Shown one piece after another: positions 45,160 to 61,501 of a stretch of DNA of 64,000 nt. Every line of letters starts with the position of its first letter. The stretch's first letter is position 1. The DNA comes from Escherichia phage vB_EcoM_Schickermooser, in the sequence record NC_048196.1, one strand, 5' to 3'. The position numbers and the translations under genes are program-made. The notes below the pieces were generated by a model that worked only from the letters and a program-made list of their open reading frames with translations, was not told where the DNA came from and did no database searches.

Positions 45160-45324
45160 ATGATTTTAAACTTCATCATCAACTTGTGTTTGACATTGGG
45201 GTTACTCTGTGCAATAGTATCCCCTTTGGTTGGTGAATATTGTTCTGAACTGGCGATGTTTATAGTTCTTGGTGCGGCTATTGCTAATATGTTTGTCGCT
45301 GCGATTTGTATGTTGTGGGAATAG
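45160..45324 (+). CDS. small hydrophobic membrane peptide (54 aa; not in ORF track)
   Basis: Hand-translated MILNFIINLCLTLGLLCAIVSPLVGEYCSELAMFIVLGAAIANMFVAAICMLWE; GGAGAG RBS. Confidence 0.4.
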   Translation: MILNFIINLCLTLGLLCAIVSPLVGEYCSELAMFIVLGAAIANMFVAAICMLWE

Positions 45325-50711: not shown

Positions 50712-50730
50712 ACTATTTGGAGTTAAGATC

Positions 50731-50928: not shown

Positions 50929-50934
50929 AAACTA

Positions 50935-50993
50935 TTGACAACAAACAACAACCTGATAAGATGTATCACATAGGGCGGGAAGTGGTTTCCCGC
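50935..50993 (+). promoter_or_regulatory. promoter-hairpin cassette (TTGACA-16-TAAGAT, hairpin GGGCGGGAAGTGGTTTCCCGC)
   Basis: Consensus hexamers at canonical spacing; GC-rich stem-loop 8 nt downstream of -10. Confidence 0.65.
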
Positions 50994-51018
50994 TCGTAAC
51001 AGAAGAGAGATTATCATC

Positions 51019-51291
51019 ATGGCATCATATAGCGCAACAATGATCGTAGCTGGCACAACTGGTAAACCTATGAGCGGTGGCGGATCTTTCGCTAATATCA
51101 ATATTGACGGGCGTTTATCCCTGGACGCAGCGATCGCTATTGCACGGGAAACATTTAAGAAAGAATGTAATTTCAACAAGCAAGATTATCTCGGTTTCGC
51201 TATTGAAAAAACCGCGCGCTTTGTTGATTATAAAAGCCCGAAAATGGTTGATACTACACTAAAAGCGCAAGATGTAGCGTTTTTGCTTTAA
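51019..51291 (+). CDS. hypothetical small protein (90 aa)
   Basis: AGAGAG RBS; follows cassette. Confidence 0.55.
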   Translation: MASYSATMIVAGTTGKPMSGGGSFANINIDGRLSLDAAIAIARETFKKECNFNKQDYLGFAIEKTARFVDYKSPKMVDTTLKAQDVAFLL

Positions 51292-51294
51292 GGC

Positions 51295-51350
51295 TTGACA
51301 TTAACGAATAATTTGTTAATATGTTACATAAAGCGGGAATAGTTCCCGCT
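51295..51350 (+). promoter_or_regulatory. promoter-hairpin cassette (TTGACA-16-TAATAT, hairpin AGCGGGAATAGTTCCCGCT)
   Basis: Variant hairpin without the TAGGG lead. Confidence 0.6.
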
Positions 51351-51367
51351 ATTTGTAAGGTGGTAGA

Positions 51368-51625
51368 ATGTTTTACATCAAATTAAAAGGTCACGTGATC
51401 GCGTTCAAAGATAACGCTTTTTACAGATTAGCAAAATATGCGTTAATACATCCCCACTATGTTTATATAAGGGGGCGTGATGAAATAAATATCTTTGATC
51501 AAACAACATGCGAGAACATCGAGATCCGCAAGGTTGGCGTACGTGATTATCGTACATCTTTCTACCCTTGCAAGGATTCAGCAAGTCTTTTTAAAGTATG
51601 CCAATTGTTGAAAAAAGGTGGTTAA
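51368..51625 (+). CDS. hypothetical small protein (85 aa)
   Basis: AAGGTGG RBS. Confidence 0.55.
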   Translation: MFYIKLKGHVIAFKDNAFYRLAKYALIHPHYVYIRGRDEINIFDQTTCENIEIRKVGVRDYRTSFYPCKDSASLFKVCQLLKKGG

Positions 51626-51626
51626 T

Positions 51627-52184
51627 ATGGGCCGCGAATATGTGATCCAGTCTTGGGTAAAACATGAAGCAGATGATCCGCGCATCATTCCCGATCATCT
51701 TGTCGATGAATCCACGGGCTATAGCGGGGAGCAAATAGGTAACAGATTAGCACGTAGTAACGGCAACGTAAAAGCGCGTTATGTGCGCCCTGGTTGGCTG
51801 GCAAATGGTAACGCTGATTTATCCAGTGCGGAAGATGCGAGCGACGGCGCGAAAGATAATCCTTTGTACAAAGTTGATCCGGCTTTTCGTGTCCTGGATG
51901 AATACCCCAGCAAGATAGCGGCGCTTGATGAAGCACTAGAAAGTAAGCGCATCACCTGGACCGCTTACAACATGGCAAAAAACGTACTTGATGGTAAACT
52001 GATTCAAGCGGAGAGAAAATTAGCCAAAATTGCAGCCATAGCCCAGGAGGAAGACGAGGAGACAACGGAAGAGGAAGAGTACGAAGAGATCCCGCCGTTG
52101 TTGTGTGTTGATGCTTTTCCTGATTATCAGCCGACAGAGGAAGAAAAAAGGATCGCCCTAGAAAACTTTGAAAATAGTCTTTGA
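51627..52184 (+). CDS. hypothetical protein with acidic C-terminal region (185 aa)
   Basis: GGTGG RBS before ATG at 51627; acidic tract QEEDEETTEEEEYEE. Confidence 0.55.
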   Translation: MGREYVIQSWVKHEADDPRIIPDHLVDESTGYSGEQIGNRLARSNGNVKARYVRPGWLANGNADLSSAEDASDGAKDNPLYKVDPAFRVLDEYPSKIAALDEALESKRITWTAYNMAKNVLDGKLIQAERKLAKIAAIAQEEDEETTEEEEYEEIPPLLCVDAFPDYQPTEEEKRIALENFENSL

Positions 52185-52239
52185 CATATCGCCGCCACTA
52201 GCATAATATTTACCACGTAGGGCGGCAATGGTGCCGCTC
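52181..52239 (+). promoter_or_regulatory. promoter-hairpin cassette (TTGACA-17-TAATAT, hairpin GGGCGGCAATGGTGCCGC)
   Basis: -35 overlaps stop codon of upstream gene. Confidence 0.6.
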
Positions 52240-52266
52240 ATAGTGAAATTATACAAGAGGCTTACA

Positions 52267-52362
52267 ATGATTAATAAAGAAAATAGCTTGACGGTTGGAA
52301 CGATTAACGGTATCATTCTAGCCGTTCCATTTTGGATTGTAGTAGCGGCTATTATTTTCTAA
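52267..52362 (+). CDS. small hydrophobic peptide (31 aa; not in ORF track)
   Basis: Hand-translated MINKENSLTVGTINGIILAVPFWIVVAAIIF; AAGAGG RBS; sits between two cassettes. Confidence 0.4.
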   Translation: MINKENSLTVGTINGIILAVPFWIVVAAIIF

Positions 52363-52370
52363 AAATATTC

Positions 52371-52431
52371 TTGACAACGTTTTTTAATCTGATAAGATGT
52401 ATCACATAGGGCGGCGGAATACTTCCCCGCC
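52371..52431 (+). promoter_or_regulatory. promoter-hairpin cassette (TTGACA-16-TAAGAT, hairpin GGGCGGCGGAATACTTCCCCGCC)
   Basis: Same architecture. Confidence 0.65.
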
Positions 52432-52452
52432 AAAACAAAAAAGGGTAACACA

Positions 52453-52815
52453 ATGAGCAAGCAAATCAATACTATCATGTTTAATCTGGTATCTTTCCGT
52501 GAAGATATGAAAAATTTACCACGTGAAACGGTTGATATTCATGTTTCAGCTTATCGCGCCCTTATTGACATGTTACCGCTAAAACGTGATCAACATGCCG
52601 CTAACATGATGCTTAATGCTATGCTTAAAAAGATGATTCAAACGGATCTCATCCTGGCGTATGAGTATCAAGGGCGCTTATATGCTACTTACAACAAGGC
52701 GGTACCTGGTCTGGGAAGTACCGAAGAGTTGCACGGCTTAAACCTGGATCAGAACACTTGGGATAGTATGCGCCGCGTTATGGTATGGGCCGAAAGCGGT
52801 AAAATTTACGAATAA
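52453..52815 (+). CDS. hypothetical protein (120 aa)
   Basis: AAGGG RBS. Confidence 0.55.
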   Translation: MSKQINTIMFNLVSFREDMKNLPRETVDIHVSAYRALIDMLPLKRDQHAANMMLNAMLKKMIQTDLILAYEYQGRLYATYNKAVPGLGSTEELHGLNLDQNTWDSMRRVMVWAESGKIYE

Positions 52816-52820
52816 AACGG

Positions 52821-52877
52821 TTGACACTGTTTAAAATTCTGGTATAGTTTATCACGTAGGGCGGCAATGGTGCCGCC
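52821..52877 (+). promoter_or_regulatory. promoter-hairpin cassette (TTGACA-17-TATAGT, hairpin GGGCGGCAATGGTGCCGCC)
   Basis: Same architecture. Confidence 0.65.
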
Positions 52878-52897
52878 AACAATAAAAGGTTAACATC

Positions 52898-53077
52898 ATG
52901 ACTATCATTGCAAAAACTGAGATTATAGGTTTAGATTCGATCCTCCTGGCTTATGAGGAAACTTTAAAAATGTATGTAGTGACCTATGGTGATTATGTGC
53001 GTGAATACGAATACATTGATCTTGCTTTCGAATGTTACATTCGCCAGGTCAATAAAGCCTATAACGATTATCGTTAA
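52898..53077 (+). CDS. hypothetical small protein (59 aa; not in ORF track)
   Basis: Hand-translated MTIIAKTEIIGLDSILLAYEETLKMYVVTYGDYVREYEYIDLAFECYIRQVNKAYNDYR; AAGG RBS. Confidence 0.45.
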   Translation: MTIIAKTEIIGLDSILLAYEETLKMYVVTYGDYVREYEYIDLAFECYIRQVNKAYNDYR

Positions 53078-53096
53078 AAGTTTTAGTCTTATACTA

Positions 53097-53148
53097 TTGA
53101 CAATGAGTGATAGTATAAGCATAATAACTTTTATCGGGAATACTTCCC
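53097..53148 (+). promoter_or_regulatory. promoter-hairpin cassette variant (TTGACA-17-CATAAT, hairpin GGGAATACTTCCC)
   Basis: Shorter stem. Confidence 0.5.
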
Positions 53149-53173
53149 ACTAACCAAAAAAGAGAGTAATATC

Positions 53174-53539
53174 ATGGCTATTAATATCAATGTTTCCTCT
53201 TATGCTACCCTGGCTGACACGGCTAAAATTGAATTGTCCAGCATTGAGGCGGTGCATATTAGCGCCCGTCGTTGGTTTCAACAGTCCTACGGTAACACAT
53301 ATTTTTCTTTAATGGTTGACGTTGAGATCGGCGGTAAACTGATCGAGGTGGTTAACGTTCCGTTTCAATATGGCTATGGTGATCATTTTGATACCGTCGC
53401 CCTGGAAGAATTTAGCAAGGTTATCAACCTTGAGGGCAAGGAATTTTCACGCGGCGCGTATCTTTCCCGTTTTTGCCGTGACAATGGGATCACTGTATAC
53501 AGTCATGCAAGCGATGTAAAACGTAAAAAAGATTTATAA
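53174..53539 (+). CDS. hypothetical protein (121 aa)
   Basis: AGAGAG RBS. Confidence 0.55.
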   Translation: MAININVSSYATLADTAKIELSSIEAVHISARRWFQQSYGNTYFSLMVDVEIGGKLIEVVNVPFQYGYGDHFDTVALEEFSKVINLEGKEFSRGAYLSRFCRDNGITVYSHASDVKRKKDL

Positions 53540-53545
53540 AAAGCA

Positions 53546-53604
53546 TTGACAGCACGAATAAAAAGAGTAAACTGTATTACATAGAGAGCGGGAACACTTC
53601 CCGC
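53546..53604 (+). promoter_or_regulatory. promoter-hairpin cassette (TTGACA-16-TAAACT, hairpin GCGGGAACACTTCCCGC)
   Basis: Same architecture. Confidence 0.6.
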
Positions 53605-53628
53605 CTCACTGAAAAAGAGAGAAAAATC

Positions 53629-53868
53629 ATGGCTAAATCTAAAATGTACAACGGTCACAAAAACAAAACTCATTGGAATGTAAGCCTGTGGATTAATAAC
53701 GATGAGGGATTGTATCGGTTTGCACTGGGATTGATCAATGAGTGCGGTAATAAAGATCAGGCGGCTGATTTAATGTGCTACCGTTTGAAACAGGATGGAA
53801 TCACTACAACGCCAGACGGCTTTAAGTATAGTAAAACTGCAATCCGCGCCGCTATGGTTGGAATGTAA
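53629..53868 (+). CDS. hypothetical small protein (79 aa)
   Basis: AGAGAGA RBS. Confidence 0.55.
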   Translation: MAKSKMYNGHKNKTHWNVSLWINNDEGLYRFALGLINECGNKDQAADLMCYRLKQDGITTTPDGFKYSKTAIRAAMVGM

Positions 53869-53963
53869 AGGAGACATAAAAATGAAACATCGTTCGACCT
53901 ATCTCACAAAACGTTTTAGCTTAGATCATAAATTGGGCTATTACGGAAGAAATAGAAAATAAT

Positions 53964-54023
53964 TTGACAACGTTTAAAATTAGTGTAAGATGTATCACAT
54001 AGGGCGGGAAGTGGTTTCCCGCC
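53964..54023 (+). promoter_or_regulatory. promoter-hairpin cassette (TTGACA-16-TAAGAT, hairpin GGGCGGGAAGTGGTTTCCCGCC)
   Basis: Near-identical to the 50935 copy. Confidence 0.65.
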
Positions 54024-54045
54024 AACAACAGAGAGATTAAAGATT

Positions 54046-54273
54046 ATGGCTATCAATATTGTTCGCGTATCCGGCACCGTTGGCACTTCCCAGGTTGTAG
54101 CAGTTGTAACAAACAAAAAGATTAATGATGTATGTGAGATCTTGAATAAGTGGGCTATTGCTAATTTTGGGGAATATGCAAGCGTCGAGTACATCGAATC
54201 CTACCAGGTGCCAACCATCAGCCTGACCGATCTCAACGTTGATCGCCTGTTATGCCTGGATGAATTAATCTGA
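54046..54273 (+). CDS. hypothetical small protein (75 aa)
   Basis: AGAGAG RBS. Confidence 0.55.
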   Translation: MAINIVRVSGTVGTSQVVAVVTNKKINDVCEILNKWAIANFGEYASVEYIESYQVPTISLTDLNVDRLLCLDELI

Positions 54274-54282
54274 AAAAGATTG

Positions 54283-54340
54283 TTGACACGGGAAAGAAAA
54301 AGAGTAAACTGTATTACGTAGGGCGGCAATAGTGCCGCTC
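54283..54340 (+). promoter_or_regulatory. promoter-hairpin cassette (TTGACA-16-TAAACT, hairpin GGGCGGCAATAGTGCCGC)
   Basis: Same architecture. Confidence 0.65.
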
Positions 54341-54363
54341 ACAACAGAAGAGAGATTATCACG

Positions 54364-54576
54364 ATGGCTAATATCCGCACACTGTTAAAAAATGCAAGTC
54401 AAGTTTTATTTTCTGATCACGATCATTTTAATAAAGATATTACAGGCGTGAAGAATATCAAAGATGTAAAAAGTGTTATGGGTATATATTGCAATGTTAA
54501 ACGTGTTGGAACGTTCGGTGATAAAGTATTGTACCAATCAGGTGATTACAATTTTACTTTGACGATTATTTCATAA
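54364..54576 (+). CDS. hypothetical small protein (70 aa)
   Basis: AGAGAG RBS. Confidence 0.55.
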   Translation: MANIRTLLKNASQVLFSDHDHFNKDITGVKNIKDVKSVMGIYCNVKRVGTFGDKVLYQSGDYNFTLTIIS

Positions 54577-54581
54577 AACGC

Positions 54582-54643
54582 TTGCAATACTGCAAAAATA
54601 AAGTAAACTGTATTACATCAAGGCGGCGGAATGGTCCACCGCC
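54582..54643 (+). promoter_or_regulatory. promoter-hairpin cassette (TTGCAA-16-TAAACT, hairpin GGCGGCGGAATGGTCCACCGCC)
   Basis: Same architecture. Confidence 0.6.
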
Positions 54644-54667
54644 TAACAAAGAGAAGAGGAAAATATT

Positions 54668-54835
54668 ATGATCACTTTCGCTACCCGTGAAGCCGCTCGC
54701 AACGTTGCACGTAAAGTTAACGCCGCCAACCTGGGCGCTACGCTTAAAGCCCCTGTAAAAGATGAATCAGGAAAATGGATCTTCCCTGGTCTACGTCATG
54801 CTGACAAGTTAGGTACTTTAAGCCTTAAAAAATAA
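54668..54835 (+). CDS. hypothetical small basic protein (55 aa; not in ORF track)
   Basis: Hand-translated MITFATREAARNVARKVNAANLGATLKAPVKDESGKWIFPGLRHADKLGTLSLKK; AGAGGA RBS. Confidence 0.45.
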   Translation: MITFATREAARNVARKVNAANLGATLKAPVKDESGKWIFPGLRHADKLGTLSLKK

Positions 54836-54838
54836 TCG

Positions 54839-54876
54839 TTGACTTTTCGTTATAGCGCCTTATAATGGGCGCTATA
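54839..54876 (+). promoter_or_regulatory. promoter TTGACT-16-TATAAT with inverted repeat TATAGCGCC/GGCGCTATA flanking the -10
   Basis: Consensus -10 embedded between 9-bp inverted repeat arms (54851-54859 and 54868-54876); operator-like. Confidence 0.55.
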
Positions 54877-54913
54877 GAGAAGAGAAACCAATCACCAGAA
54901 AGAGAGAAAGAAA

Positions 54914-55132
54914 ATGGCAATCCGTAAAATTAAAGTTGTTTGCATTGAATCAACTGGTGGCGCTTTTGTAGTTGGTCAGAAATATAATGCGGTTTTAATG
55001 GGCATGGATTGGAAGGTTAAAGGTCTTGATGGTTACGAATACGGCACTACTCTCGGATTGCGTGGTCGAATCGGATACGTGAGCTTAGACAACAAAGAAA
55101 AATTTGTTTTCGATATTGTTGTGAGTAAATAG
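54914..55132 (+). CDS. hypothetical small protein (72 aa)
   Basis: AGAGAGA RBS. Confidence 0.55.
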   Translation: MAIRKIKVVCIESTGGAFVVGQKYNAVLMGMDWKVKGLDGYEYGTTLGLRGRIGYVSLDNKEKFVFDIVVSK

Positions 55133-55211
55133 CATGAATTGCTAAAGACTAATCTGCAAATTGCTGTATTATCAACTAATTGAAACGAAACACATAAAGA
55201 GAAAAAACATT

Positions 55212-55433
55212 ATGATCACTTTCGCTATTGTCGCCGTTGTTGCTGGTCAAGTTTACGTAAACGATACATTCACCACAGAAGACAAGGCCGCAGGAGATAT
55301 AACCGCCGTTTACAATGAGTGCAAGGCAGTAGAAAGGATGTTAGCGCCTTGTATGCTAATGAGTGAACGCCAGGACGGAATAACAGTATTTACTAACATT
55401 GAAACAGGGTACCAAATGGTAGTAACAAAATAA
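55212..55433 (+). CDS. hypothetical small protein with hydrophobic N-terminus (73 aa)
   Basis: AAGAGA RBS before ATG at 55212; N-terminus MITFA shared with 54668 ORF. Confidence 0.5.
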   Translation: MITFAIVAVVAGQVYVNDTFTTEDKAAGDITAVYNECKAVERMLAPCMLMSERQDGITVFTNIETGYQMVVTK

Positions 55434-55436
55434 AGC

Positions 55437-55493
55437 TTGACACCGATTTAATTTTTAGTAAACTGTTACACGTAGGGCGGGAATAGTTCCCGC
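55437..55493 (+). promoter_or_regulatory. promoter-hairpin cassette (TTGACA-16-TAAACT, hairpin GGGCGGGAATAGTTCCCGC)
   Basis: Same architecture. Confidence 0.65.
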
Positions 55494-55512
55494 TCAAAAA
55501 GAGAGAAAGACC

Positions 55513-55866
55513 ATGAAAGCACAAAATGCAATTAAAGAGTACATCCTTGCCGCTATCGATTTTAATGATTACGGTATTACAACCGAAAAAGAGAAGATCG
55601 CGGAATTGATGCGCCGTTTTAATTCCGAGTACTGGTACCCTGATAACCAATCACGTTTTAATTATAGTATTGTTAAAGCACTTGCATCATGGTTACAAGG
55701 TTTGCCATCAGATATCAATATCGCTTTCGAATATTGGGAAATTGATCGCTTGTTAACATCCTGGGGATACATTAAAGAGAATAGCAGCGATGATAAAATC
55801 CAACGAGAAAGGGAAAATTATTGGCTTTATATTGCAGGCGTGATCCTTGCTTGCTCTTATGAATGA
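55513..55866 (+). CDS. hypothetical protein (117 aa)
   Basis: AGAGAGA RBS. Confidence 0.55.
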   Translation: MKAQNAIKEYILAAIDFNDYGITTEKEKIAELMRRFNSEYWYPDNQSRFNYSIVKALASWLQGLPSDINIAFEYWEIDRLLTSWGYIKENSSDDKIQRERENYWLYIAGVILACSYE

Positions 55867-55872
55867 TAAACC

Positions 55873-55927
55873 TTGACAATTTTACAAAACAGTTTAAATT
55901 AACAATATAGCGGCAATGGTGCCGCTC
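55873..55927 (+). promoter_or_regulatory. promoter-hairpin cassette variant (TTGACA-17-AAATTA, hairpin AGCGGCAATGGTGCCGCT)
   Basis: Weak -10 but conserved hairpin. Confidence 0.5.
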
Positions 55928-55945
55928 ATATGAAGAGGAAACAAA

Positions 55946-56092
55946 ATGAATACATCTAATCGCGCAGAAAAAATTCAATCTTCCAAGATCCGCAAGGCCT
56001 GGAACGAGGAAGTGATCCGCAAAGGCGACAAGCGTAATAAAACAAAGCGCGGGAAGAGTGACAAATATAATTGGATGGATTTAGAGGATTAA
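55946..56092 (+). CDS. hypothetical small basic protein (48 aa; not in ORF track)
   Basis: Hand-translated MNTSNRAEKIQSSKIRKAWNEEVIRKGDKRNKTKRGKSDKYNWMDLED; GAGGAA RBS. Confidence 0.45.
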   Translation: MNTSNRAEKIQSSKIRKAWNEEVIRKGDKRNKTKRGKSDKYNWMDLED

Positions 56093-56098
56093 CATAAC

Positions 56099-56127
56099 AA
56101 GGGCGCATCAAGCGCCCTTTCTTTTTA
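56099..56127 (+). terminator. rho-independent terminator (GGGCGC-ATCAA-GCGCCC + TTTCTTTTT)
   Basis: 6-bp GC stem followed by T-run. Confidence 0.8.
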
Positions 56128-56147
56128 CATGTAGAGGATAAACAAAA

Positions 56148-56333
56148 ATGACTTTAAACGAGCTTAAAACAGCCTACAACGCAACATTAAAAATAGCCGT
56201 GCGTTACCGTGATGCGTATGGTTTTATCGCGCAGGGCGTGATCCTGGGCTTTTCTGACGATGGTTTGATCTATGTTGATGCACATCACAACAAGGTTAAA
56301 CCTGAAAACGTCATTAGCATAAAATATCTTTAA
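56148..56333 (+). CDS. hypothetical small protein (61 aa)
   Basis: GAGGA RBS. Confidence 0.5.
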   Translation: MTLNELKTAYNATLKIAVRYRDAYGFIAQGVILGFSDDGLIYVDAHHNKVKPENVISIKYL

Positions 56334-56338
56334 AAACG

Positions 56339-56395
56339 GTTGACAGCATAACCAAGTATGATAAGATGTATCACGTAGGGCGGGAATAGTTCCCG
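56339..56395 (+). promoter_or_regulatory. promoter-hairpin cassette (TTGACA-16-TAAGAT, hairpin GGGCGGGAATAGTTCCCG)
   Basis: Same architecture. Confidence 0.65.
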
Positions 56396-56418
56396 ACCAC
56401 ATAAAAGAGAAAAACATT

Positions 56419-56631
56419 ATGACCACTATCACAACAAAACAAGAAAAAATTATTACAGACATTGCCGCAGTAGCCGCTATTGCTATTATTGGTACCTACT
56501 ATGACACCGCGCGACCTTCCTCCTTACATGAGATCGCCGCCGTTGCATCAGTTGGCGTACTGTTTTACGTTGGTAAACGCTATTTATCACCAATGATTAA
56601 CAAGCTGACACCGTGGAAAAATAAAGGTTGA
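56419..56631 (+). CDS. small membrane protein (70 aa)
   Basis: AGAGA RBS; hydrophobic segment IAAVAAIAIIGTYY. Confidence 0.55.
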   Translation: MTTITTKQEKIITDIAAVAAIAIIGTYYDTARPSSLHEIAAVASVGVLFYVGKRYLSPMINKLTPWKNKG

Positions 56632-56682
56632 TCCTGTTTTATATTGTGTTATAGTTATCGTGTAGGGCGGCAATGGTGCCGC
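56628..56682 (+). promoter_or_regulatory. promoter-hairpin cassette (TTGATC-16-TATAGT, hairpin GGGCGGCAATGGTGCCGC)
   Basis: Same architecture. Confidence 0.6.
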
Positions 56683-56702
56683 GCCCCTTTGAGGATGCAA
56701 TC

Positions 56703-56987
56703 ATGCGTAAAGCTAACACCGTGCTAATGTTTTCCCTGATTAATAATGCCGCTTACTTGTCCAACATGACGCAGGAGGGTAACACATTAACGGCAACATT
56801 CACCAATAAGCTTGACCGAGTGATCATAATCTCACTGAAAACAGTTAGTAAAGGCTTTTACTCGTTAGCTTATCATTGTATCACTGACACCGACGAGACA
56901 AGCCAGGACTATAGCGCCCCTTTCCCTGAATCAATGGCACGGGAGATCATCGCCGCCGTTGTAAATGATGGTTTGTTTACTGCATAA
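56703..56987 (+). CDS. hypothetical protein (94 aa)
   Basis: GAGGA RBS before ATG at 56703; ORF-track start 56673 runs through the hairpin. Confidence 0.55.
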   Translation: MRKANTVLMFSLINNAAYLSNMTQEGNTLTATFTNKLDRVIIISLKTVSKGFYSLAYHCITDTDETSQDYSAPFPESMAREIIAAVVNDGLFTA

Positions 56988-57004
56988 AATAATTCAGAAA
57001 AGGC

Positions 57005-57061
57005 TTGCAATAATTTTCAGACCGTGTATATTTAATTCATAGGGCGGCGGGAATAGTTCCC
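57005..57061 (+). promoter_or_regulatory. promoter-hairpin cassette (TTGCAA-16-TATATT, hairpin GGCGGGAATAGTTCCC)
   Basis: Same architecture. Confidence 0.55.
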
Positions 57062-57084
57062 TAAGCAAACGAGAGGATTACACG

Positions 57085-57204
57085 ATGAGCAAGTATACAG
57101 TAGAATACACGGTAGAAAATCCGGCAGTATCCGAAGGTAAAAAGATGACATTTGCCATCAGTATAATCGCTTTCGTTATCACTATCTTATCAATCATCTT
57201 ATAA
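57085..57204 (+). CDS. small membrane peptide (39 aa; not in ORF track)
   Basis: Hand-translated MSKYTVEYTVENPAVSEGKKMTFAISIIAFVITILSIIL; GAGAGGA RBS. Confidence 0.4.
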   Translation: MSKYTVEYTVENPAVSEGKKMTFAISIIAFVITILSIIL

Positions 57205-57214
57205 GGTGCGTACT

Positions 57215-57376
57215 ATGAAAACAACAGACATTATCAAAGAGATCGCCCTTGCCGCTGACGTTGAGATCGAGGAAGTGATCGCGCTCAACCTTACAGAAAA
57301 CGATCTGCGCAACTATGAAGCGGAAAGCGTGAAAGCAAGCGGCGCGGTCCTGGCATATAATCCGGCTAACAAGTAA
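57215..57376 (+). CDS. hypothetical small acidic protein (53 aa; not in ORF track)
   Basis: Hand-translated MKTTDIIKEIALAADVEIEEVIALNLTENDLRNYEAESVKASGAVLAYNPANK; AAGG RBS. Confidence 0.4.
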   Translation: MKTTDIIKEIALAADVEIEEVIALNLTENDLRNYEAESVKASGAVLAYNPANK

Positions 57377-57385
57377 GGGGATAAC

Positions 57386-57496
57386 ATGAATCCGAAAGAT
57401 ATGCAAGCATGGAAAGGGTACGACGATCTAAGCGCCTTGCGCAATAAGTCAAGCCGTAACCTTAGACGATTGCAAGCAAAGAAAAAGAAAAAATAG
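57386..57496 (+). CDS. hypothetical small basic peptide (36 aa; not in ORF track)
   Basis: Hand-translated MNPKDMQAWKGYDDLSALRNKSSRNLRRLQAKKKKK; AAGGGG RBS. Confidence 0.35.
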   Translation: MNPKDMQAWKGYDDLSALRNKSSRNLRRLQAKKKKK

Positions 57497-57497
57497 T

Positions 57498-57555
57498 TTG
57501 ACAAGTCCGCTTAATCTGATAATATGTATCTTGTAGGGCGGCAATGGTGCCGCTC
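57498..57555 (+). promoter_or_regulatory. promoter-hairpin cassette (TTGACA-16-TAATAT, hairpin GGGCGGCAATGGTGCCGC)
   Basis: Same architecture. Confidence 0.65.
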
Positions 57556-57574
57556 ACAAGAAGAGAGAAAAATC

Positions 57575-57859
57575 ATGAAAATCACAAAAAGCCTAACTAA
57601 TTATGCAGCACGTCGCGGATTATGTTTAACCGTTGAAAACTTAGGGAAAGAAGACTTTTTGTGTTTTTGGGAGCTTGAAAACGATTGCGAGTGGATGTTT
57701 TCCTATTCTATCTGCGAAGATCAAAACGGTTGTTTGTTAACCTGGCGCGGTAATATTTATTTACCGGAAGAAATTAAAGAGGAATTACCAGGTACGATCA
57801 TGACAGAGAGACAGCTTAAGGAAATGATTAATTTTGTATGGCAAAACATTAAAAAATAA
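57575..57859 (+). CDS. hypothetical protein (94 aa)
   Basis: AGAGAGA RBS before ATG at 57575. Confidence 0.55.
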   Translation: MKITKSLTNYAARRGLCLTVENLGKEDFLCFWELENDCEWMFSYSICEDQNGCLLTWRGNIYLPEEIKEELPGTIMTERQLKEMINFVWQNIKK

Positions 57860-57860
57860 T

Positions 57861-57921
57861 TTGACAGCAGGCAAACAACGTAGTAAAGTTTACCACATAG
57901 GGCGGCGGAATGGTCCACCGC
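57861..57921 (+). promoter_or_regulatory. promoter-hairpin cassette (TTGACA-17-TAAAGT, hairpin GGGCGGCGGAATGGTCCACCGC)
   Basis: Same architecture. Confidence 0.65.
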
Positions 57922-57944
57922 TCACAACAGAAGAGAAACAAATC

Positions 57945-58115
57945 ATGATCCCGACTATGTTTTATGTATCGCGCAAAGGTCACAATATTTTTTGGTCTGA
58001 AGATTTAAATGAAGCCATGACGTTTGCCCGTGATCGTGTCGCTATCGGTGGCGTTAACATCACCGTAACCGATGAAAACGGCATTGAATACTATAACGGC
58101 AACGATGAAGAGTAA
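57945..58115 (+). CDS. hypothetical small protein (56 aa)
   Basis: AGAGA RBS before ATG at 57945. Confidence 0.5.
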   Translation: MIPTMFYVSRKGHNIFWSEDLNEAMTFARDRVAIGGVNITVTDENGIEYYNGNDEE

Positions 58116-58122
58116 TCAACAA

Positions 58123-58140
58123 GGCGGGATTAATCCCGCC
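58123..58140 (+). promoter_or_regulatory. perfect palindrome GGCGGGATTAATCCCGCC (hairpin or operator)
   Basis: 18-bp perfect palindrome between two genes; no following T-run, so not a canonical terminator. Confidence 0.45.
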
Positions 58141-58159
58141 TGTATTAAAGGGTAATATA

Positions 58160-58297
58160 ATGAAAACTTTCAACGCAACAGCCTCGACAATTGGTTATAT
58201 TATTACAGTGCAAGCCGTTGACCTGGTAGCGGCAGCAAACAAGATTAAAAAGATGATCCCAACAGGCAGCGAATTTTCCGTTTGGGAAGTAAAATAA
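58160..58297 (+). CDS. hypothetical small protein (45 aa; not in ORF track)
   Basis: Hand-translated MKTFNATASTIGYIITVQAVDLVAAANKIKKMIPTGSEFSVWEVK; AAGGG RBS. Confidence 0.4.
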   Translation: MKTFNATASTIGYIITVQAVDLVAAANKIKKMIPTGSEFSVWEVK

Positions 58298-58300
58298 ATC

Positions 58301-58358
58301 TTGACAATAGTTTATTACTTGATAGAATGTATTTCGTAGGGCGGCAATAGTGCCGCTC
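58301..58358 (+). promoter_or_regulatory. promoter-hairpin cassette (TTGACA-16-TAGAAT, hairpin GGGCGGCAATAGTGCCGC)
   Basis: Same architecture. Confidence 0.65.
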
Positions 58359-58379
58359 ACAACTAAAAGAGAAATCATC

Positions 58380-58574
58380 ATGGCGCTTAAAAAATTAACA
58401 AGCAATACTCGTTGGGATGAAATCGACGGGGAAGTATACATTTTCGCCCGTAAACCAGGTGATCAAAAATGGTCAAAGGCTTTTACTTGCCACCCTGCAA
58501 CAATAGATCTAATAAAAAGTAAAGGTTTACGTGAAGCAGTAGCAAGGAGTTTACTGATCCCTTGTAAAAAATAG
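58380..58574 (+). CDS. hypothetical small protein (64 aa)
   Basis: AAGAGA RBS before ATG at 58380. Confidence 0.55.
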   Translation: MALKKLTSNTRWDEIDGEVYIFARKPGDQKWSKAFTCHPATIDLIKSKGLREAVARSLLIPCKK

Positions 58575-58637
58575 TTTGACAATACGCGGTTATCTGGTAA
58601 AGTGTACGACATAGGGCGGGGCAATAAGGCAACGCCC
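58575..58637 (+). promoter_or_regulatory. promoter-hairpin cassette (TTGACA-17-TAAAGT, hairpin GGGCGGGGCAATAAGGCAACGCCC)
   Basis: Variant, longer hairpin. Confidence 0.55.
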
Positions 58638-58655
58638 ACTAATGAGGGTAAAATC

Positions 58656-58760
58656 ATGTTAGAGAAAATTTTCACGGTTGTAATAGTGGGCTTGGCGTTA
58701 TCGGTTGGAGTGGTTGCAACTATGGCTAATATGATCCTATCTTCCCACGGTATCGGTTAA
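58656..58760 (+). CDS. small membrane peptide (34 aa; not in ORF track)
   Basis: Hand-translated MLEKIFTVVIVGLALSVGVVATMANMILSSHGIG; GAGGG RBS. Confidence 0.4.
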   Translation: MLEKIFTVVIVGLALSVGVVATMANMILSSHGIG

Positions 58761-58770
58761 GGTGAAACAA

Positions 58771-58986
58771 ATGATCACGAACAAAACAGGCAAAACGGAA
58801 TTTTTACGCGGCTTACAAGTTGGTAAGCCTGAGATCTGGCATTGCACGAAGTCCGCGCATAATGAAATGAAAGATTTCACCGCTACTTTACAACGTGTTA
58901 AAATATCTATTACGCAGAAAAAAGCCTTGTTAGTAGTAGAAAACGAGATCCCGCAAACTATTATTATTGTCGAGCGTACAGCATGA
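58771..58986 (+). CDS. hypothetical small protein (71 aa)
   Basis: Start ATG 58771 or GTG 58762. Confidence 0.5.
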   Translation: MITNKTGKTEFLRGLQVGKPEIWHCTKSAHNEMKDFTATLQRVKISITQKKALLVVENEIPQTIIIVERTA

Positions 58987-59369
58987 AAACAGAAATCATT
59001 ATTGAAATCATCAACGGTTATAAAGAAGCCTTTATTTTTGCTGAATCAGCCAGGGATCATGAAGGTGATTTTATTGATAACTTAGACGATTATGATTTTT
59101 CTCCTGGCGCGGATGAACGGATCGCCCAGGATGTAACAGCCTTTATTAATGCTAATCTTGCCGCTATCTCTGAGGCAATGAGCGACGGCGCAACAGCCAA
59201 CCAGATCGGGAATGATTTACATTTTACCCGTAACGGTCACGGCGTAGGATTTTGGGATCGCCCTGAAATATACACCACTAACACGGCGAACCGCCTAACA
59301 AATGCAGCTAAGTTTATGCCGAACGTGTCGGCTTACATTGGTGAAGATAATTTGATTTATATTGAATAA
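58983..59369 (+). CDS. hypothetical acidic protein (128 aa)
   Basis: ATGA overlap with upstream ORF. Confidence 0.55.
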   Translation: MKTEIIIEIINGYKEAFIFAESARDHEGDFIDNLDDYDFSPGADERIAQDVTAFINANLAAISEAMSDGATANQIGNDLHFTRNGHGVGFWDRPEIYTTNTANRLTNAAKFMPNVSAYIGEDNLIYIE

Positions 59370-59375
59370 AAAGTA

Positions 59376-59433
59376 TTGACACAGATCGCCAGTGTGATAA
59401 TATTTACCACGTAGGGCGGCAATGGTGCCGCTC
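59376..59433 (+). promoter_or_regulatory. promoter-hairpin cassette (TTGACA-16-TAATAT, hairpin GGGCGGCAATGGTGCCGC)
   Basis: Same architecture. Confidence 0.65.
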
Positions 59434-59452
59434 CCCGAAAAAGGTAAACATT

Positions 59453-59644
59453 ATGAAAACTATCTCCTACCTGGAATCGAATAACATGTTTTTTGCGCCC
59501 GTTGATGAAATCATCGAGGCTTTAAACAATGAAGAGGGGATCAATGGTTTATCTTATAGCGAGCTTTTAGGAATGGTTGCAGCAAATGAAGAGCTTGCTT
59601 ACTATGTTGAAAATTTTGATGAAGCTGTAATCTTTACAAAATAA
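59453..59644 (+). CDS. hypothetical small acidic protein (63 aa)
   Basis: AAGG RBS. Confidence 0.55.
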   Translation: MKTISYLESNNMFFAPVDEIIEALNNEEGINGLSYSELLGMVAANEELAYYVENFDEAVIFTK

Positions 59645-59647
59645 TCC

Positions 59648-59704
59648 TTGATCTAATCTCTTAGATAACTTATATTTAATGCGTAGGGCGGCAATGGTGC
59701 CGCC
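59648..59704 (+). promoter_or_regulatory. promoter-hairpin cassette (TTGATC-17-TATATT, hairpin GGGCGGCAATGGTGCCGCC)
   Basis: Same architecture. Confidence 0.6.
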
Positions 59705-59722
59705 GATAATGAGGAAAACAAA

Positions 59723-60022
59723 ATGGAAACTATCGCTATTGTTACCGTAGAAAAACTGGTTGTTGGTGACGTATTCGCGTTAATGGTGCCTAACAGCAGC
59801 AAGCTGGGCGCTTATGAAGTGATGGACCATAAAAATGAATCATTTGGCGACGGTTGCACAATGGCGGTAAAATCTTTGAAGGATGGAATCACCCGCCAGG
59901 CTAACTGGCACAAAGGGAACCAGGTCGGTTTAATATCCGCTAATTTCTTGCCAGAAGAGCAAACGTTAGACCAACTATCAGGCGGTAAGACGTTAGCCGA
60001 ACTACTGGAAACAGCGATCTAA
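59723..60022 (+). CDS. hypothetical protein (99 aa)
   Basis: GAGGAA RBS. Confidence 0.55.
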   Translation: METIAIVTVEKLVVGDVFALMVPNSSKLGAYEVMDHKNESFGDGCTMAVKSLKDGITRQANWHKGNQVGLISANFLPEEQTLDQLSGGKTLAELLETAI

Positions 60023-60030
60023 TCAACAAA

Positions 60031-60046
60031 GGGGCGGCAACGCCCC
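60031..60046 (+). terminator. hairpin GGGGCG-GCAA-CGCCCC (no U-tract)
   Basis: 6-bp GC stem with GCAA tetraloop after gene stop; function uncertain. Confidence 0.35.
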
Positions 60047-60067
60047 ACATCAGGAAGGGAAAAGATT

Positions 60068-60304
60068 ATGAGTATTGCAACAGTATTAACCGCCGTTAAA
60101 ACCGCTGAATCATCCGGCTTACATGTTGAGCTTATAGATCAACCAGGTGGCGATCTCCTTGTCCAGGTTTACCCGCCGAAAGTAGGGGATGATTATTATT
60201 GGGCTTATTCTGATACGTTCGAACAAGTAGACACGAAAGCGGTAACAGCCTTTATTTTAAAAGCCGTTGAAGAAAATAACTTTCATCATAACATCAATCA
60301 ATAA
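60068..60304 (+). CDS. hypothetical protein (78 aa)
   Basis: AGGAAGGG RBS. Confidence 0.5.
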   Translation: MSIATVLTAVKTAESSGLHVELIDQPGGDLLVQVYPPKVGDDYYWAYSDTFEQVDTKAVTAFILKAVEENNFHHNINQ

Positions 60305-60339
60305 CGCCCCATTAAACGCAATAGGAAGAGGATAGACAC

Positions 60340-60630
60340 ATGAAAAAGATGATCGCAGTAGTTGCCCTGGTTGTTGGTATTAACGCGCCTGTAATGGCTA
60401 ACGATTTGCCGGAATCGATCACGTTAACCGATATCAACGCAGTAAACCGGATCGGTGTTAATTATCGCCTATGCCTTGCCGCTAAAACTTTTAAGGACGG
60501 GGAAACAGAATACCACGGATTCGAGGGAGTCCGGTGCGGTGAGCTTGCACGCGACCTTAAGGAAGATCCAGACCTTGAGGCCATACCGATGACCGTAAAC
60601 GGTAAAGCTTACGTAAACCGCCAACAATGA
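60340..60630 (+). CDS. putative secreted protein (96 aa)
   Basis: GGAAGAGG RBS; signal peptide MKKMIAVVALVVGINAPVMA. Confidence 0.55.
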   Translation: MKKMIAVVALVVGINAPVMANDLPESITLTDINAVNRIGVNYRLCLAAKTFKDGETEYHGFEGVRCGELARDLKEDPDLEAIPMTVNGKAYVNRQQ

Positions 60631-60641
60631 GAAAGGTAATC

Positions 60642-60761
60642 ATGACAATGGGGATCATAGTAGCAACGCTGGCGCTAATCCCCTTCCTGATTAGATATGT
60701 GATAGTAGATCTGGTCCTGGTTATTAGTGACCTGCTATCTTCCATCGGCACACTATTTTAA
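60642..60761 (+). CDS. small membrane peptide (39 aa; not in ORF track)
   Basis: Hand-translated MTMGIIVATLALIPFLIRYVIVDLVLVISDLLSSIGTLF; AAGG RBS. Confidence 0.4.
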   Translation: MTMGIIVATLALIPFLIRYVIVDLVLVISDLLSSIGTLF

Positions 60762-60770
60762 GGGTACATC

Positions 60771-60962
60771 ATGAACGTGGAACAAGTTAGAAAGGTATTA
60801 GCAGCGTTACGCTATCACAACTATAGCAAGGTTAAGAATGATCCTGATTATGTGGATTCAAGCCTGGAAGAAGACACATTGCAAGCTATAAGCCATATGC
60901 AAGAATTGCTTAAGCGTATGACAGAGAAAAACAGATCTGATTATATAGGTGACGAGATCTAA
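60771..60962 (+). CDS. hypothetical small protein (63 aa)
   Basis: AAGGG RBS. Confidence 0.5.
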   Translation: MNVEQVRKVLAALRYHNYSKVKNDPDYVDSSLEEDTLQAISHMQELLKRMTEKNRSDYIGDEI

Positions 60963-60968
60963 AATAGC

Positions 60969-61026
60969 TTGCACAATGTATCTGATAGTGTAAGATGTAT
61001 CACGTAGGGCGGCAATGGTGCCGCTC
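60969..61026 (+). promoter_or_regulatory. promoter-hairpin cassette (TTGCAC-16-TAAGAT, hairpin GGGCGGCAATGGTGCCGC)
   Basis: Same architecture. Confidence 0.6.
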
Positions 61027-61046
61027 ACAACTGGAAGGAAAACACC

Positions 61047-61250
61047 ATGACTACAGCTAACCGCCTGATCGCCGTCCTGAACAAAGCAAAGGCTAACCGC
61101 CTGGATGTTCAAATCAAAGAGCAAGCAAATGGCGAGATCCTTGCTACGGTGTCCGATGGCGGTTATGTATCGGAATCATTTTTATCAGGGAGCTTAGATC
61201 ATCTTGTTTGGAAATTAGAAATTACCGTGGAGGATATGCAGATCATCTAA
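61047..61250 (+). CDS. hypothetical small protein (67 aa)
   Basis: GGAAGGA RBS. Confidence 0.55.
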   Translation: MTTANRLIAVLNKAKANRLDVQIKEQANGEILATVSDGGYVSESFLSGSLDHLVWKLEITVEDMQII

Positions 61251-61255
61251 TCTTT

Positions 61256-61288
61256 ACAAAACAGGGCTTGTTTTTGTCCTGTTTTTTG
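61256..61288 (+). terminator. terminator-like hairpin AACAGG...CCTGTT followed by T6
   Basis: Inverted repeat with large loop followed by TTTTTTGTT. Confidence 0.5.
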
Positions 61289-61424
61289 TTATGCTTATTG
61301 AACGGGCGGCACTGGCAACGGGGGAGGTAATCACCGGACGACCCCGCTATATATTGATAGCTAACACCTATCAAACAACAAAACATCAAAGAGATAAACT
61401 ATCAAATCTTTACAATTCTACCTA

Positions 61425-61483
61425 TTGACACCGGATCACCCTTATATTATTATTTATCACGTAGGGCGGGAATGTTTCCCGCC
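61425..61483 (+). promoter_or_regulatory. promoter-hairpin cassette (TTGACA-17-TATTAT, hairpin GGGCGGGAATGTTTCCCGCC)
   Basis: Same architecture. Confidence 0.65.
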
Positions 61484-61501
61484 TGATTTAGGAGTCACAT
61501 C

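What the first reader, a model, noticed from the sequence alone, without database searches (positions are those of the whole stretch)
52267..60761. Several unannotated 31-54 aa hydrophobic peptides with RBS inside the cassette array
Hand translation of gaps between track ORFs yields short ORFs with good RBS and single predicted TM helices: 52267..52362 (31 aa), 57085..57204 (39 aa), 58656..58760 (34 aa), 60642..60761 (39 aa), plus 45160..45324 (54 aa) upstream. Short membrane peptides in phage early regions are often host-takeover factors, superinfection-exclusion proteins or membrane-depolarising toxins. Three further short soluble ORFs (57215..57376, 57386..57496, 58160..58297) fill gaps where the track shows only antisense ORFs.
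Basis: seen in the sequence. Interest (0 to 1): 0.5.

Follow-up and report, generated by a model that had tools for sequence, protein, structure and literature searches.

The report
Small early phage genes, already catalogued
The eight short reading frames are real, conserved small genes (five membrane peptides, three soluble) in the early region of an rV5/phAPEC8-type E. coli phage. All have counterparts already annotated as hypothetical proteins in public phage genomes, and seven sit in existing phage protein families, so the finding is correct but ordinary and their function is still unknown.

Summary
The window is a Phapecoctavirus-like (phAPEC8/rV5 group) E. coli myophage. Positions 44-62 kb form a + strand array of small early genes behind repeated sigma-70-type promoters, each followed by a leader hairpin.

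- **Observation.** All eight ORFs exist. Seven have an ATG with a Shine-Dalgarno sequence. The last most likely starts at 60627 (44 aa, ATGA overlap with the upstream gene), not at 60642.
- **Membrane prediction.** Five have transmembrane-grade hydrophobic segments. The 54-aa one has two, not one. These five are the only such ORFs among 50 + strand ORFs of 30-60 aa.
- **Conservation.** All eight frames are kept in relatives, with pN/pS of 0.11-0.57 (randomisation P <= 0.0033 each).
- **Prior knowledge.** Seven match full-length PHROG families. Each of the eight is annotated as a hypothetical or membrane protein in at least one GenBank or RefSeq relative; homologues of two are in FV3, whose notes call them similar to rV5 proteins.
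- **Distribution.** The five membrane peptides occur in 62-226 phage records. Annotation is patchy.
- **Function.** No Pfam, NCBIfam, PADLOC or PDB relative was found and no paper tests any of them. A role as accessory early membrane effectors (host takeover, exclusion or anti-defence) is plausible but only inferred.

Verdict: real genes, already known as ORFans, low novelty.

The parts
45160..45324 (+). p54: 54-aa protein with two predicted transmembrane segments (about 1-20 and 31-53). It sits between a 54-aa gene and a 118-aa protein with a signal-peptide-like N-terminus.
   Evidence: ATG with GGAGAG upstream. Two clusters of windows with Hessa dG<0. phrog_27459, E 1.4e-38, 54/54 positions. 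Found in 69 phage records. Annotated CDS in vB_EcoM_REC, nieznany, phiWec190 and PsgM04F. A 98%-identical database cluster is named 'TMhelix containing protein' by NCBI. pN/pS 0.48.
52267..52362 (+). p31: 31-aa peptide with a polar N-terminus and a transmembrane segment at residues 13-31. It is the only gene between two promoters (a single-gene cassette).
   Evidence: Promoter at 52181-52209. Leader hairpin at about 52220-52239, with the SD left unpaired. AAGAGG then ATG. The next promoter starts at 52371. Found in 106 phage records. Annotated as a 96-nt CDS in tuntematon, Ro121c4YLVW, REC, nieznany and EmilieFrey. No PHROG family. pN/pS 0.27. Invariant motif SLTVGxxN...P.
57085..57204 (+). 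p39a: 39-aa peptide with a 20-aa polar N-terminus ending in KK, then a C-terminal transmembrane segment. First gene of a three-gene small-ORF cassette.
   Evidence: GAGAGGA then ATG. Transmembrane segment at 20-39, Hessa -3.4. phrog_10979 'membrane protein', E 4.9e-23, 39/39 positions. Found in 62 phage records, including the unrelated 48-kb Salmonella phage PMBT28, where it is an annotated 39-aa CDS. Annotated 'membrane protein' in tuntematon and others. pN/pS 0.57.
57215..57376 (+). p53: 53-aa acidic soluble protein, second gene of the cassette.
   Evidence: TAAGGTG-N8-ATG junction. phrog_35944, E 2e-39. Annotated in all seven relatives that carry it among loci L001-L012. pN/pS 0.44.
57386..57496 (+). 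p36: 36-aa very basic soluble peptide (C-terminal KKKKK), third gene of the cassette. The next promoter starts at 57498.
   Evidence: TAAGGGGATAAC then ATG. phrog_31652, E 2.3e-27. Annotated in tuntematon, REC, nieznany, phiWec190, phiWec179 and PsgM04F. pN/pS 0.26.
58160..58297 (+). p45: 45-aa soluble protein, downstream of the 56-aa gene 57945-58115 and of a hairpin at 58122-58141.
   Evidence: AAGGGTA then ATG. phrog_29854, E 3.5e-35. Annotated in six relatives. pN/pS 0.11. The hairpin folds at -16 kcal/mol and has no U-run on the + strand.
58656..58760 (+). p34: 34-aa peptide with an N-terminal transmembrane segment (5-23) and a conserved C-terminal motif VGxxATMANxxxS. First gene after a promoter and hairpin.
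   Evidence: Promoter at 58576-58603. Leader hairpin. GAGGGTA then ATG. phrog_14631, E 1.7e-22, 34/34 positions. Found in 226 phage records, all covering at least 80% of the peptide, spanning Phapecoctavirus, Justusliebigvirus and Vequintavirus. Annotated in FV3 as FV3_00160, with the record's note 'similar to rV5 hypothetical protein'. pN/pS 0.30.
60627..60761 (+). p44: 44-aa membrane peptide. Its ATG overlaps the stop of the upstream gene (ATGA).
   Evidence: ATG at 60627 is conserved in all seven relatives compared; the 60642 codon is ATA in four of them. phrog_16005, 44/44 positions, E 2.8e-20. Found in 96 phage records. Annotated in PsgM04F, FV3 and others. Both 44-aa and 39-aa gene calls exist in databases. 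pN/pS 0.35.
60340..60630 (+). Partner gene of p44: 96-aa protein with an N-terminal signal-peptide-like sequence (MKKMIAVVALVVGINAPVMA) and two conserved Cys. It lies immediately upstream of the p44 homologue in all seven relatives examined.
   Evidence: Translation. phrog_9845. Adjacency seen in L001, L002, L003, L005, L011, L012 and L014 (together). The AF2 model had low confidence, pLDDT 61.
52181..52239 (+). One example of the repeated early-promoter plus leader-hairpin unit that drives these genes (TTGACA-N17-TAATAT, then GTAGGGCGGCAATGGTGCCGCTC).
   Evidence: Repeat families D1-D5. Promoter scan. 13 copies of GTAGGGCGGSAAT, all on the + strand between 50.7 and 61.5 kb, against 0.05 expected. 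Fold energy -17.3 kcal/mol, z -2.65.

Best explanation
These are eight genuine small protein-coding genes in the host-RNA-polymerase-driven early region of a Phapecoctavirus-like E. coli phage.

Shown here:
- The ORFs lie on the coding strand, directly behind sigma-70-type promoters with a leader hairpin, or inside short operons with stop/SD/start junctions of the TAAGGxG-N7-9-ATG type.
- Their frames, start codons and lengths are conserved under purifying selection across three phage genera.
- Five contain transmembrane-grade hydrophobic segments: p31 and p39a at the C-terminus, p34 at the N-terminus, p54 as a two-segment hairpin, and p44 next to a protein with a signal-peptide-like N-terminus. 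Three are soluble.

Inferred:
- They are made in the first minutes of infection.
- The five hydrophobic ones insert into the host inner membrane.
- There they act as accessory effectors that bind specific host or phage membrane components (host takeover, exclusion of competing phages, or interference with membrane-associated defence) rather than as non-specific membrane poisons. The argument is that each family keeps an invariant polar or small-residue motif beyond plain hydrophobicity: SLTVGxxN in p31, VxYxxxNxAxxxG in p39a, VGxxATMANxxxS in p34, and SDLLxxxGTxF in p44.

They are already catalogued as hypothetical or membrane proteins, and none has a tested function.
For: - ORFs, ATG starts and SD sequences.
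- Promoters and hairpins.
- Identity of the phage group.
- Conservation and selection: pN/pS 0.11-0.57; randomisation P <= 0.0033 for each.
- PHROG full-length matches for 7 of 8.
- Annotated counterparts.
- Distribution in 62-226 phage records.
- Transmembrane windows, and their restriction to these five ORFs.
- Invariant motifs.
- Accessory character: presence or absence, and neighbours, differ between close relatives, and the p39a family occurs in the unrelated Salmonella phage PMBT28.
Against: - There is no direct evidence of translation or membrane insertion for any of them.
- pN/pS values of 0.5-0.6 for p54 and p39a are only moderately constrained, and the comparisons share ancestry.
- The functional part (specific membrane effectors) rests on analogy and motif conservation only.
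- No homology to any characterised protein was found.
Confidence: 0.85

Rival explanations
1. Superinfection-exclusion proteins in the manner of T4 Imm or Sp, or HK97 gp15. On this view one or more of the membrane peptides, made early, block DNA entry or tail lysozyme action of a second infecting phage.
For: Small size, predicted inner-membrane location and early-promoter context. p44 is always paired with a protein that has a signal-peptide-like N-terminus, which would suit an envelope-directed function. That Imm, Sp and gp15 are small early or prophage membrane proteins is recalled from memory, not tested here.
Against: No sequence similarity to any Pfam family, which would include any Imm superinfection-immunity model it holds, or to any PADLOC model. 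No experiment exists. Five different peptides are unlikely all to do this.
Confidence: 0.2
2. Non-specific membrane-depolarising or toxin-like peptides (like type I toxins TisB or Hok, or holin/antiholin-like timers) that shut down host metabolism or time lysis.
For: Length and hydrophobicity resemble type I toxins and the E. coli small protein YohP, which depolarises the membrane (paper listing; hydrophobicity).
Against: Each family has invariant polar or small-residue motifs outside the hydrophobic core, which points to specific contacts. The genes sit behind early promoters, outside any recognisable lysis cassette. In rV5 the lysin is gp89 and the proposed holin is gp129, a 78-aa protein with two transmembrane domains and a charged C-terminus. 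None of the five has such a charged C-terminal tail. No Pfam holin or toxin family matches.
Confidence: 0.12
3. Chance ORFs in untranslated leaders or spacers of the promoter-hairpin cassettes. On this view the conservation reflects RNA or DNA elements, not proteins.
For: Short ORFs are abundant in this AT-rich DNA: 251 ORFs of at least 25 aa in 20 kb. Several relatives' annotations omit p34, p44 or p31.
Against: Substitutions are concentrated at third codon positions, and no stops appear despite up to 46% nucleotide divergence. ATG and SD are conserved. The ORFs exactly fill the space between one promoter-hairpin and the next gene. There are full-length PHROG families. No Rfam family matches there.
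Confidence: 0.03

Closest known systems
PHROG families phrog_27459, 10979, 35944, 31652, 29854, 14631 and 16005, and the corresponding annotated CDS in relatives such as tuntematon, vB_EcoM_REC and PsgM04F (plus FV3 for the p34 and p44 homologues and phAPEC8 for the p39a and p54 homologues)
   Same: Full-length, high-scoring matches (E 1e-20 to 1e-39, with profile length equal to ORF length) and 90-100% identical homologues in many GenBank records.
   Different: Nothing material; these are the same genes. p31 has no PHROG family but is annotated in RefSeq relatives. All are of unknown function. phrog_10979 carries only the descriptive label 'membrane protein'.
T4 Imm and Sp, and HK97 gp15 (small phage inner-membrane superinfection-exclusion proteins; recalled from memory)
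   Same: Small, membrane-embedded and phage-encoded. Their role is to change the infected cell's envelope rather than to build virions.
   Different: No detectable sequence similarity. The peptides here are shorter (31-54 aa). The function is untested.
E. coli small membrane proteins such as YohP, AcrZ, MgtS and MgrB, and type I toxins (TisB, Hok)
   Same: Peptides of 50 aa or less consisting essentially of one transmembrane helix. The known members act by binding larger membrane proteins or by depolarising the membrane (papers listed; other details from memory).
   Different: No homology (no NCBIfam or Pfam hits). These are phage-encoded, sit behind early phage promoters, and are restricted to the rV5/phAPEC8/phi92 phage group, with one transfer to a Salmonella phage.
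Promoter-early-stem-loop (PeSL) cassettes of T4-type phages (Arbiol, Comeau and Krisch; recalled from memory, not checked)
   Same: Arrays of very small early ORFs, each preceded by a near-identical sigma-70 promoter and a stem-loop, with cassette-wise gain and loss between relatives.
   Different: A different phage lineage and a different repeat sequence. Whether recombination at the repeats moves the cassettes here was not tested.

Membership tests
PHROG families of hypothetical phage proteins (27459, 10979, 35944, 31652, 29854, 14631, 16005) | Significant full-length match to the family HMM | tested here: met
   E-values 2.8e-20 to 2e-39, with the whole profile covered, for 7 of 8 ORFs. p31 has no family.
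Genuine protein-coding gene (as opposed to a chance ORF) | Reading frame, start and stop conserved in diverged relatives, with an excess of synonymous change | tested here: met
   pN/pS 0.11-0.57. No internal stops at up to 46% nucleotide divergence. Randomisation P <= 0.0033 for each ORF.
Genuine protein-coding gene (as opposed to a chance ORF) | Direct evidence of translation (ribosome footprints, peptides) | not testable with these tools
   The paper searches returned no ribosome-profiling or proteomic study of these ORFs.
Small integral membrane protein | A hydrophobic segment of about 19 residues or more with favourable predicted insertion energy | tested here: met
   Summed Hessa dG<0 windows in p54 (two), p31, p39a, p34 and p44; none in p53, p36 or p45.
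Small integral membrane protein | Experimental membrane localisation and topology | not testable with these tools
   Needs fractionation or PhoA/GFP fusions.
T4 Imm / Sp-type superinfection exclusion | Sequence homology to Imm or Sp families | tested here: not met
   No Pfam or PADLOC hit at E <= 1 other than noise (DUF6358 at 0.45, Tom5 at 0.24).
T4 Imm / Sp-type superinfection exclusion | Blocks DNA entry of a superinfecting phage | not testable with these tools
   Requires plating or DNA-injection assays.
Holin / antiholin | Transmembrane domain(s) plus a charged C-terminal tail, placed in or co-regulated with the lysis genes | tested here: not met
   The C-termini are hydrophobic or neutral. 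The genes follow early sigma-70-type promoters. No holin Pfam family matches. In rV5 the proposed holin is a different, 78-aa protein.
Type I toxin / known E. coli small membrane proteins | Homology to a curated family | tested here: not met
   No NCBIfam or Pfam hit. No PDB relative.

The most novel reading that the evidence does not exclude
At least one of the five membrane peptides is a sequence-specific micro-effector that binds and inhibits a defined host inner-membrane machine, giving superinfection exclusion or neutralising a membrane-associated defence system. That would found a new family of phage 'micro-inhibitors'. The best candidates are p34, which is present in 226 genomes of three genera with an invariant VGxxATMANxxxS motif, and the conserved pair of p44 with its neighbouring protein that has a signal-peptide-like N-terminus.
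Probability: 0.3. Interest if true: 0.5.

Novelty: already known. Interest (0 to 1): 0.15.

Why it matters
As a discovery it matters little. The genes are already in GenBank records, and seven of the eight are in PHROGs, as ORFans.

The practical value is twofold:
- **Annotation.** It shows that ORF tracks with a length cut-off, and several deposited annotations, miss real genes of 31-44 codons. In the sampled rows, p34, p44 and p31 are unannotated in roughly a third of related records. It also corrects one start codon.
- **Candidates for experiment.** It gives a short, well-supported list of conserved early membrane peptides in a phage group widely proposed for therapy. These could be screened cheaply for toxicity, exclusion or anti-defence activity.

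Tried and rejected
- **Large protein database.** The search refuses queries under 40 aa, so p34 could not be searched. p54 and p44 returned only near-identical phage sequences with no informative names.
- **Family libraries and PDB.** Pfam, NCBIfam and PADLOC gave no meaningful hits for the eight peptides, and Pfam none for their neighbours. PDB sequence searches of the five membrane peptides gave nothing.
- **Guilt by association.** For p44 I tried its invariably adjacent 96-aa neighbour with a signal-peptide-like N-terminus. Its homologues are all at least 68% identical. The AF2 model had pLDDT 61 and pTM 0.44, so I ran no fold search.
- **RNA explanations.** Rfam and tRNA scans of the region were empty, so no known RNA explains the conservation.
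- **Literature.** Searches on early transcription or small proteins of Phapecoctavirus, Vequintavirinae and rV5, on phage small membrane proteins, and on accessory-gene screens found no study of these genes.
- **Rejected starts.** I rejected the longer alternatives 52228 (44 aa) and 58602 (GTG, 52 aa). They begin inside the promoter or hairpin, lack an SD, and relatives annotate the short forms.

Full report
**What the window is.** Megablast of 52-61 kb and of 44.8-61.2 kb finds about 280 phage records. The best matches (94-98% identity) are Escherichia phages of the genus Phapecoctavirus (subfamily Stephanstirmvirinae; the phAPEC8 group, relatives of phi92 and rV5). Their taxonomy is given.

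The 44-62 kb stretch is a + strand array of very small genes. Most are preceded by a near-identical unit. That unit is TTGACA, 16-17 nt, a -10 hexamer such as TAAGAT or TAATAT, then GTAGGGCGGCAATGGTGCCGCTC, which folds into a stable hairpin at the predicted 5' end of the transcript. The core GTAGGGCGGSAAT occurs 13 times, all on the + strand between 50.7 and 61.5 kb, against 0.05 expected by chance.

**Checking the observation.** All eight ORFs exist at the stated coordinates, with ATG starts and stops. Seven have a purine-rich Shine-Dalgarno-like sequence 5-10 nt upstream. Inside operons the junctions follow a uniform stop/SD/start pattern: TAAGGAGAGAATATG, TAAGGTGCGTACTATG, TAAGGGGATAACATG and TAAGGTGAAACAAATG.

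With the Hessa biological hydrophobicity scale (values recalled from memory), a 19-residue window of negative summed insertion energy is present in:
- p54, which has two clusters (about 1-20 and 31-53);
- p31 (13-31);
- p39a (20-39);
- p34 (5-23);
- p44 (4-22).

No such window is present in p53, p36 or p45. Among the 50 maximal + strand ORFs of 30-60 aa in 44-64 kb, exactly five have such a window, and they are these five. So the hydrophobic ORFs are not a general by-product of base composition on this strand.

**Conservation.** I fetched the homologous regions of 16 public phage records, L001-L016, and located each peptide by tblastn.
- Every frame is intact in every relative that carries it. 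The start ATG is conserved, and the stop is at the same codon or within a few codons.
- Summed Nei-Gojobori-type counts give these pN/pS values:

| ORF | pN/pS |
|---|---|
| p45 | 0.11 |
| p36 | 0.26 |
| p31 | 0.27 |
| p34 | 0.30 |
| p44 | 0.35 |
| p53 | 0.44 |
| p54 | 0.48 |
| p39a | 0.57 |

- I compared each ORF with its most diverged homologue (12-49% nucleotide differences). Random placement of the same number of substitutions gave as few amino-acid changes without a stop in 0 to 0.33% of 3000 trials. These comparisons are pairwise and share ancestry, so they are indicative rather than formal.
- Each family keeps invariant non-hydrophobic motifs: SLTVGxxN...P (p31), VxYxxxNxAxxxG (p39a), VGxxATMANxxxS (p34) and MRK..MGI..PF..YV..SDLL..GT.F (p44).

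**A corrected start.** That codon is ATA in four of the seven relatives compared (L001, L002, L003, L014). An ATG 15 nt upstream, at 60627, is conserved in all seven. It overlaps the stop of the preceding gene as ATGA in this window and in some relatives, and follows it by 2 nt in others.

The PHROG profile for this family is 44 positions long and is matched end to end. Databases contain both 44-aa and 39-aa gene calls. I therefore place the gene at 60627-60761 and infer translational coupling.

Conversely, the longer alternatives for p31 (52228) and p34 (GTG at 58602) begin inside the promoter or hairpin and lack an SD.

**Already known.** Seven of the eight match PHROG families over their full length:

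| ORF | PHROG family | Label |
|---|---|---|
| p54 | phrog_27459 | unknown function |
| p39a | phrog_10979 | 'membrane protein', category moron/host takeover |
| p53 | phrog_35944 | unknown function |
| p36 | phrog_31652 | unknown function |
| p45 | phrog_29854 | unknown function |
| p34 | phrog_14631 | unknown function |
| p44 | phrog_16005 | unknown function |

Counterparts are annotated CDS in public records:
- vB_EcoM_REC annotates seven of the eight (all but p44).
- tuntematon (RefSeq) annotates p31, p39a ('membrane protein'), p53, p36 and p45.
- PsgM04F annotates p54, p39a, p53, p36, p34 and p44, and covers p31 within a longer in-frame CDS.

tblastn against 50,697 phage records finds p34 in 226, p31 in 106, p44 in 96, p54 in 69 and p39a in 62. 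In the sampled rows the position is labelled 'none' in roughly a third of records for p34, p44 and p31. Annotation is therefore inconsistent, but the genes are not new.

**Context that bears on function.**
- p31 is the sole gene between two promoters.
- p39a, p53 and p36 form a three-gene cassette. In some relatives an extra gene is inserted between p53 and p36.
- p34 is the first gene after a promoter.
- p45 follows a 56-aa gene and a hairpin that has no U-run on the + strand.
- p44 follows a 96-aa protein with a signal-peptide-like N-terminus and two conserved Cys. This pairing holds in all seven relatives examined, including the Vequintavirus FV3.
- p54 is followed by a 118-aa protein with a signal-peptide-like N-terminus and then an AAA-type ATPase.
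- Gene content differs cassette by cassette between close relatives.
- The p39a family also occurs, at 51% identity and as an annotated 39-aa CDS, in the unrelated 48-kb Salmonella phage PMBT28.

These are the marks of accessory early genes.

**What they do.** Nothing in Pfam, NCBIfam, PADLOC or the PDB resembles any of the eight peptides, and the neighbouring genes have no Pfam match either. The paper searches returned no study that tested them. The rV5 genome paper reports only that 15 rV5 proteins have predicted transmembrane domains, and it proposes a different 78-aa protein as the holin.

My best inference is that the five hydrophobic peptides insert into the host inner membrane early in infection and act through specific contacts. 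The reasons are the conserved polar motifs, the purifying selection, and p44's fixed pairing with the upstream protein that has a signal-peptide-like N-terminus. Candidate roles are host takeover, exclusion of other phages, or interference with membrane-bound defence. A non-specific depolarising role is less likely for the same reasons, but it is not excluded. A holin role is unlikely given the early-promoter context and the lack of charged C-termini. None of this is shown.

**Verdict.** The claim of 'unannotated' genes does not hold against public data. The functional interpretation is reasonable but untested. Novelty: already known, as ORFan families. Interest: low.

Noticed in passing
window 50660-61490, + strand (e.g. 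52181-52239, 56340-56397, 59376-59433): A near-identical sigma-70-type promoter (TTGACA-N16/17-TAAGAT or TAATAT) is followed by a conserved leader hairpin, GTAGGGCGG(C/G)AAT(G/A)GT(G/T)CCGC. There are 13 copies, all on one strand, against 0.05 expected by chance. No Rfam family matches. It may stabilise or regulate early mRNAs and may serve as a recombination site for cassette shuffling, as with the PeSL elements of T4-type phages (recalled from memory).
   Followed up: partly
L013 (Salmonella phage PMBT28, MG641885.1) 2501-2620: A 39-aa homologue of p39a (51% identity, annotated CDS) sits in an unrelated 48-kb Salmonella phage, next to a Gp30.8-like gene. This suggests horizontal transfer of the small membrane gene between phage lineages.
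   Followed up: partly
window 60340-60630 and 45336-45692: Two small proteins with signal-peptide-like N-termini (96 and 118 aa; phrog_9845 and phrog_5474; function unknown) are each adjacent to one of the membrane peptides in every relative examined that carries the peptide. The AF2 model of the 96-aa protein had low confidence (pLDDT 61).
   Followed up: partly
L006 (EmilieFrey) 12887-13006 and L007 (phi92) 12561-12680: The diverged p39a homologue (about 40% identity, frame intact) is not annotated in these records. In EmilieFrey an annotated CDS (12961-13110) overlaps it in another frame, so one of the two calls may be wrong.
   Followed up: no
records named Campylobacter phage (19), Acinetobacter phage vB_AbaM_ABPW7, Pseudomonas phage PsgM04F: Records labelled with non-Escherichia hosts are 85-97% identical at the DNA level to this E. 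coli phage group. The host labels may reflect contamination or mis-assignment rather than true host range.
   Followed up: no
window 49500-50700: An apparently non-coding stretch on the + strand contains two 72-nt direct repeats (49690-49761 and 49828-49899, 82% identical). An 87-aa ORF on the opposite strand (50281-50544) appears to correspond to a 267-nt CDS annotated at the equivalent position and strand in relatives. No tRNA genes were found.
   Followed up: no
window 46920-48380: A 486-aa ORF contains three internal repeats of about 75 aa, each with paired Cys motifs (repeat families D11 and D14). The locus is variable among relatives, where the gene at this position is shorter and is annotated 'endonuclease' in some.
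   Followed up: no
window 44196-44372, 55946-56092 and 56419-56631: Further small early proteins in the same array. One is a 58-aa protein with one clear predicted transmembrane segment and a second, weaker hydrophobic stretch. One is a 48-aa highly basic protein. One is a 70-aa protein with two moderately hydrophobic stretches that fall below the transmembrane threshold used here. The 58-aa and 70-aa proteins match PHROG families of unknown function; the 48-aa one was not scanned. So the array holds more small hydrophobic or highly charged proteins than the eight ORFs of the finding.
   Followed up: partly
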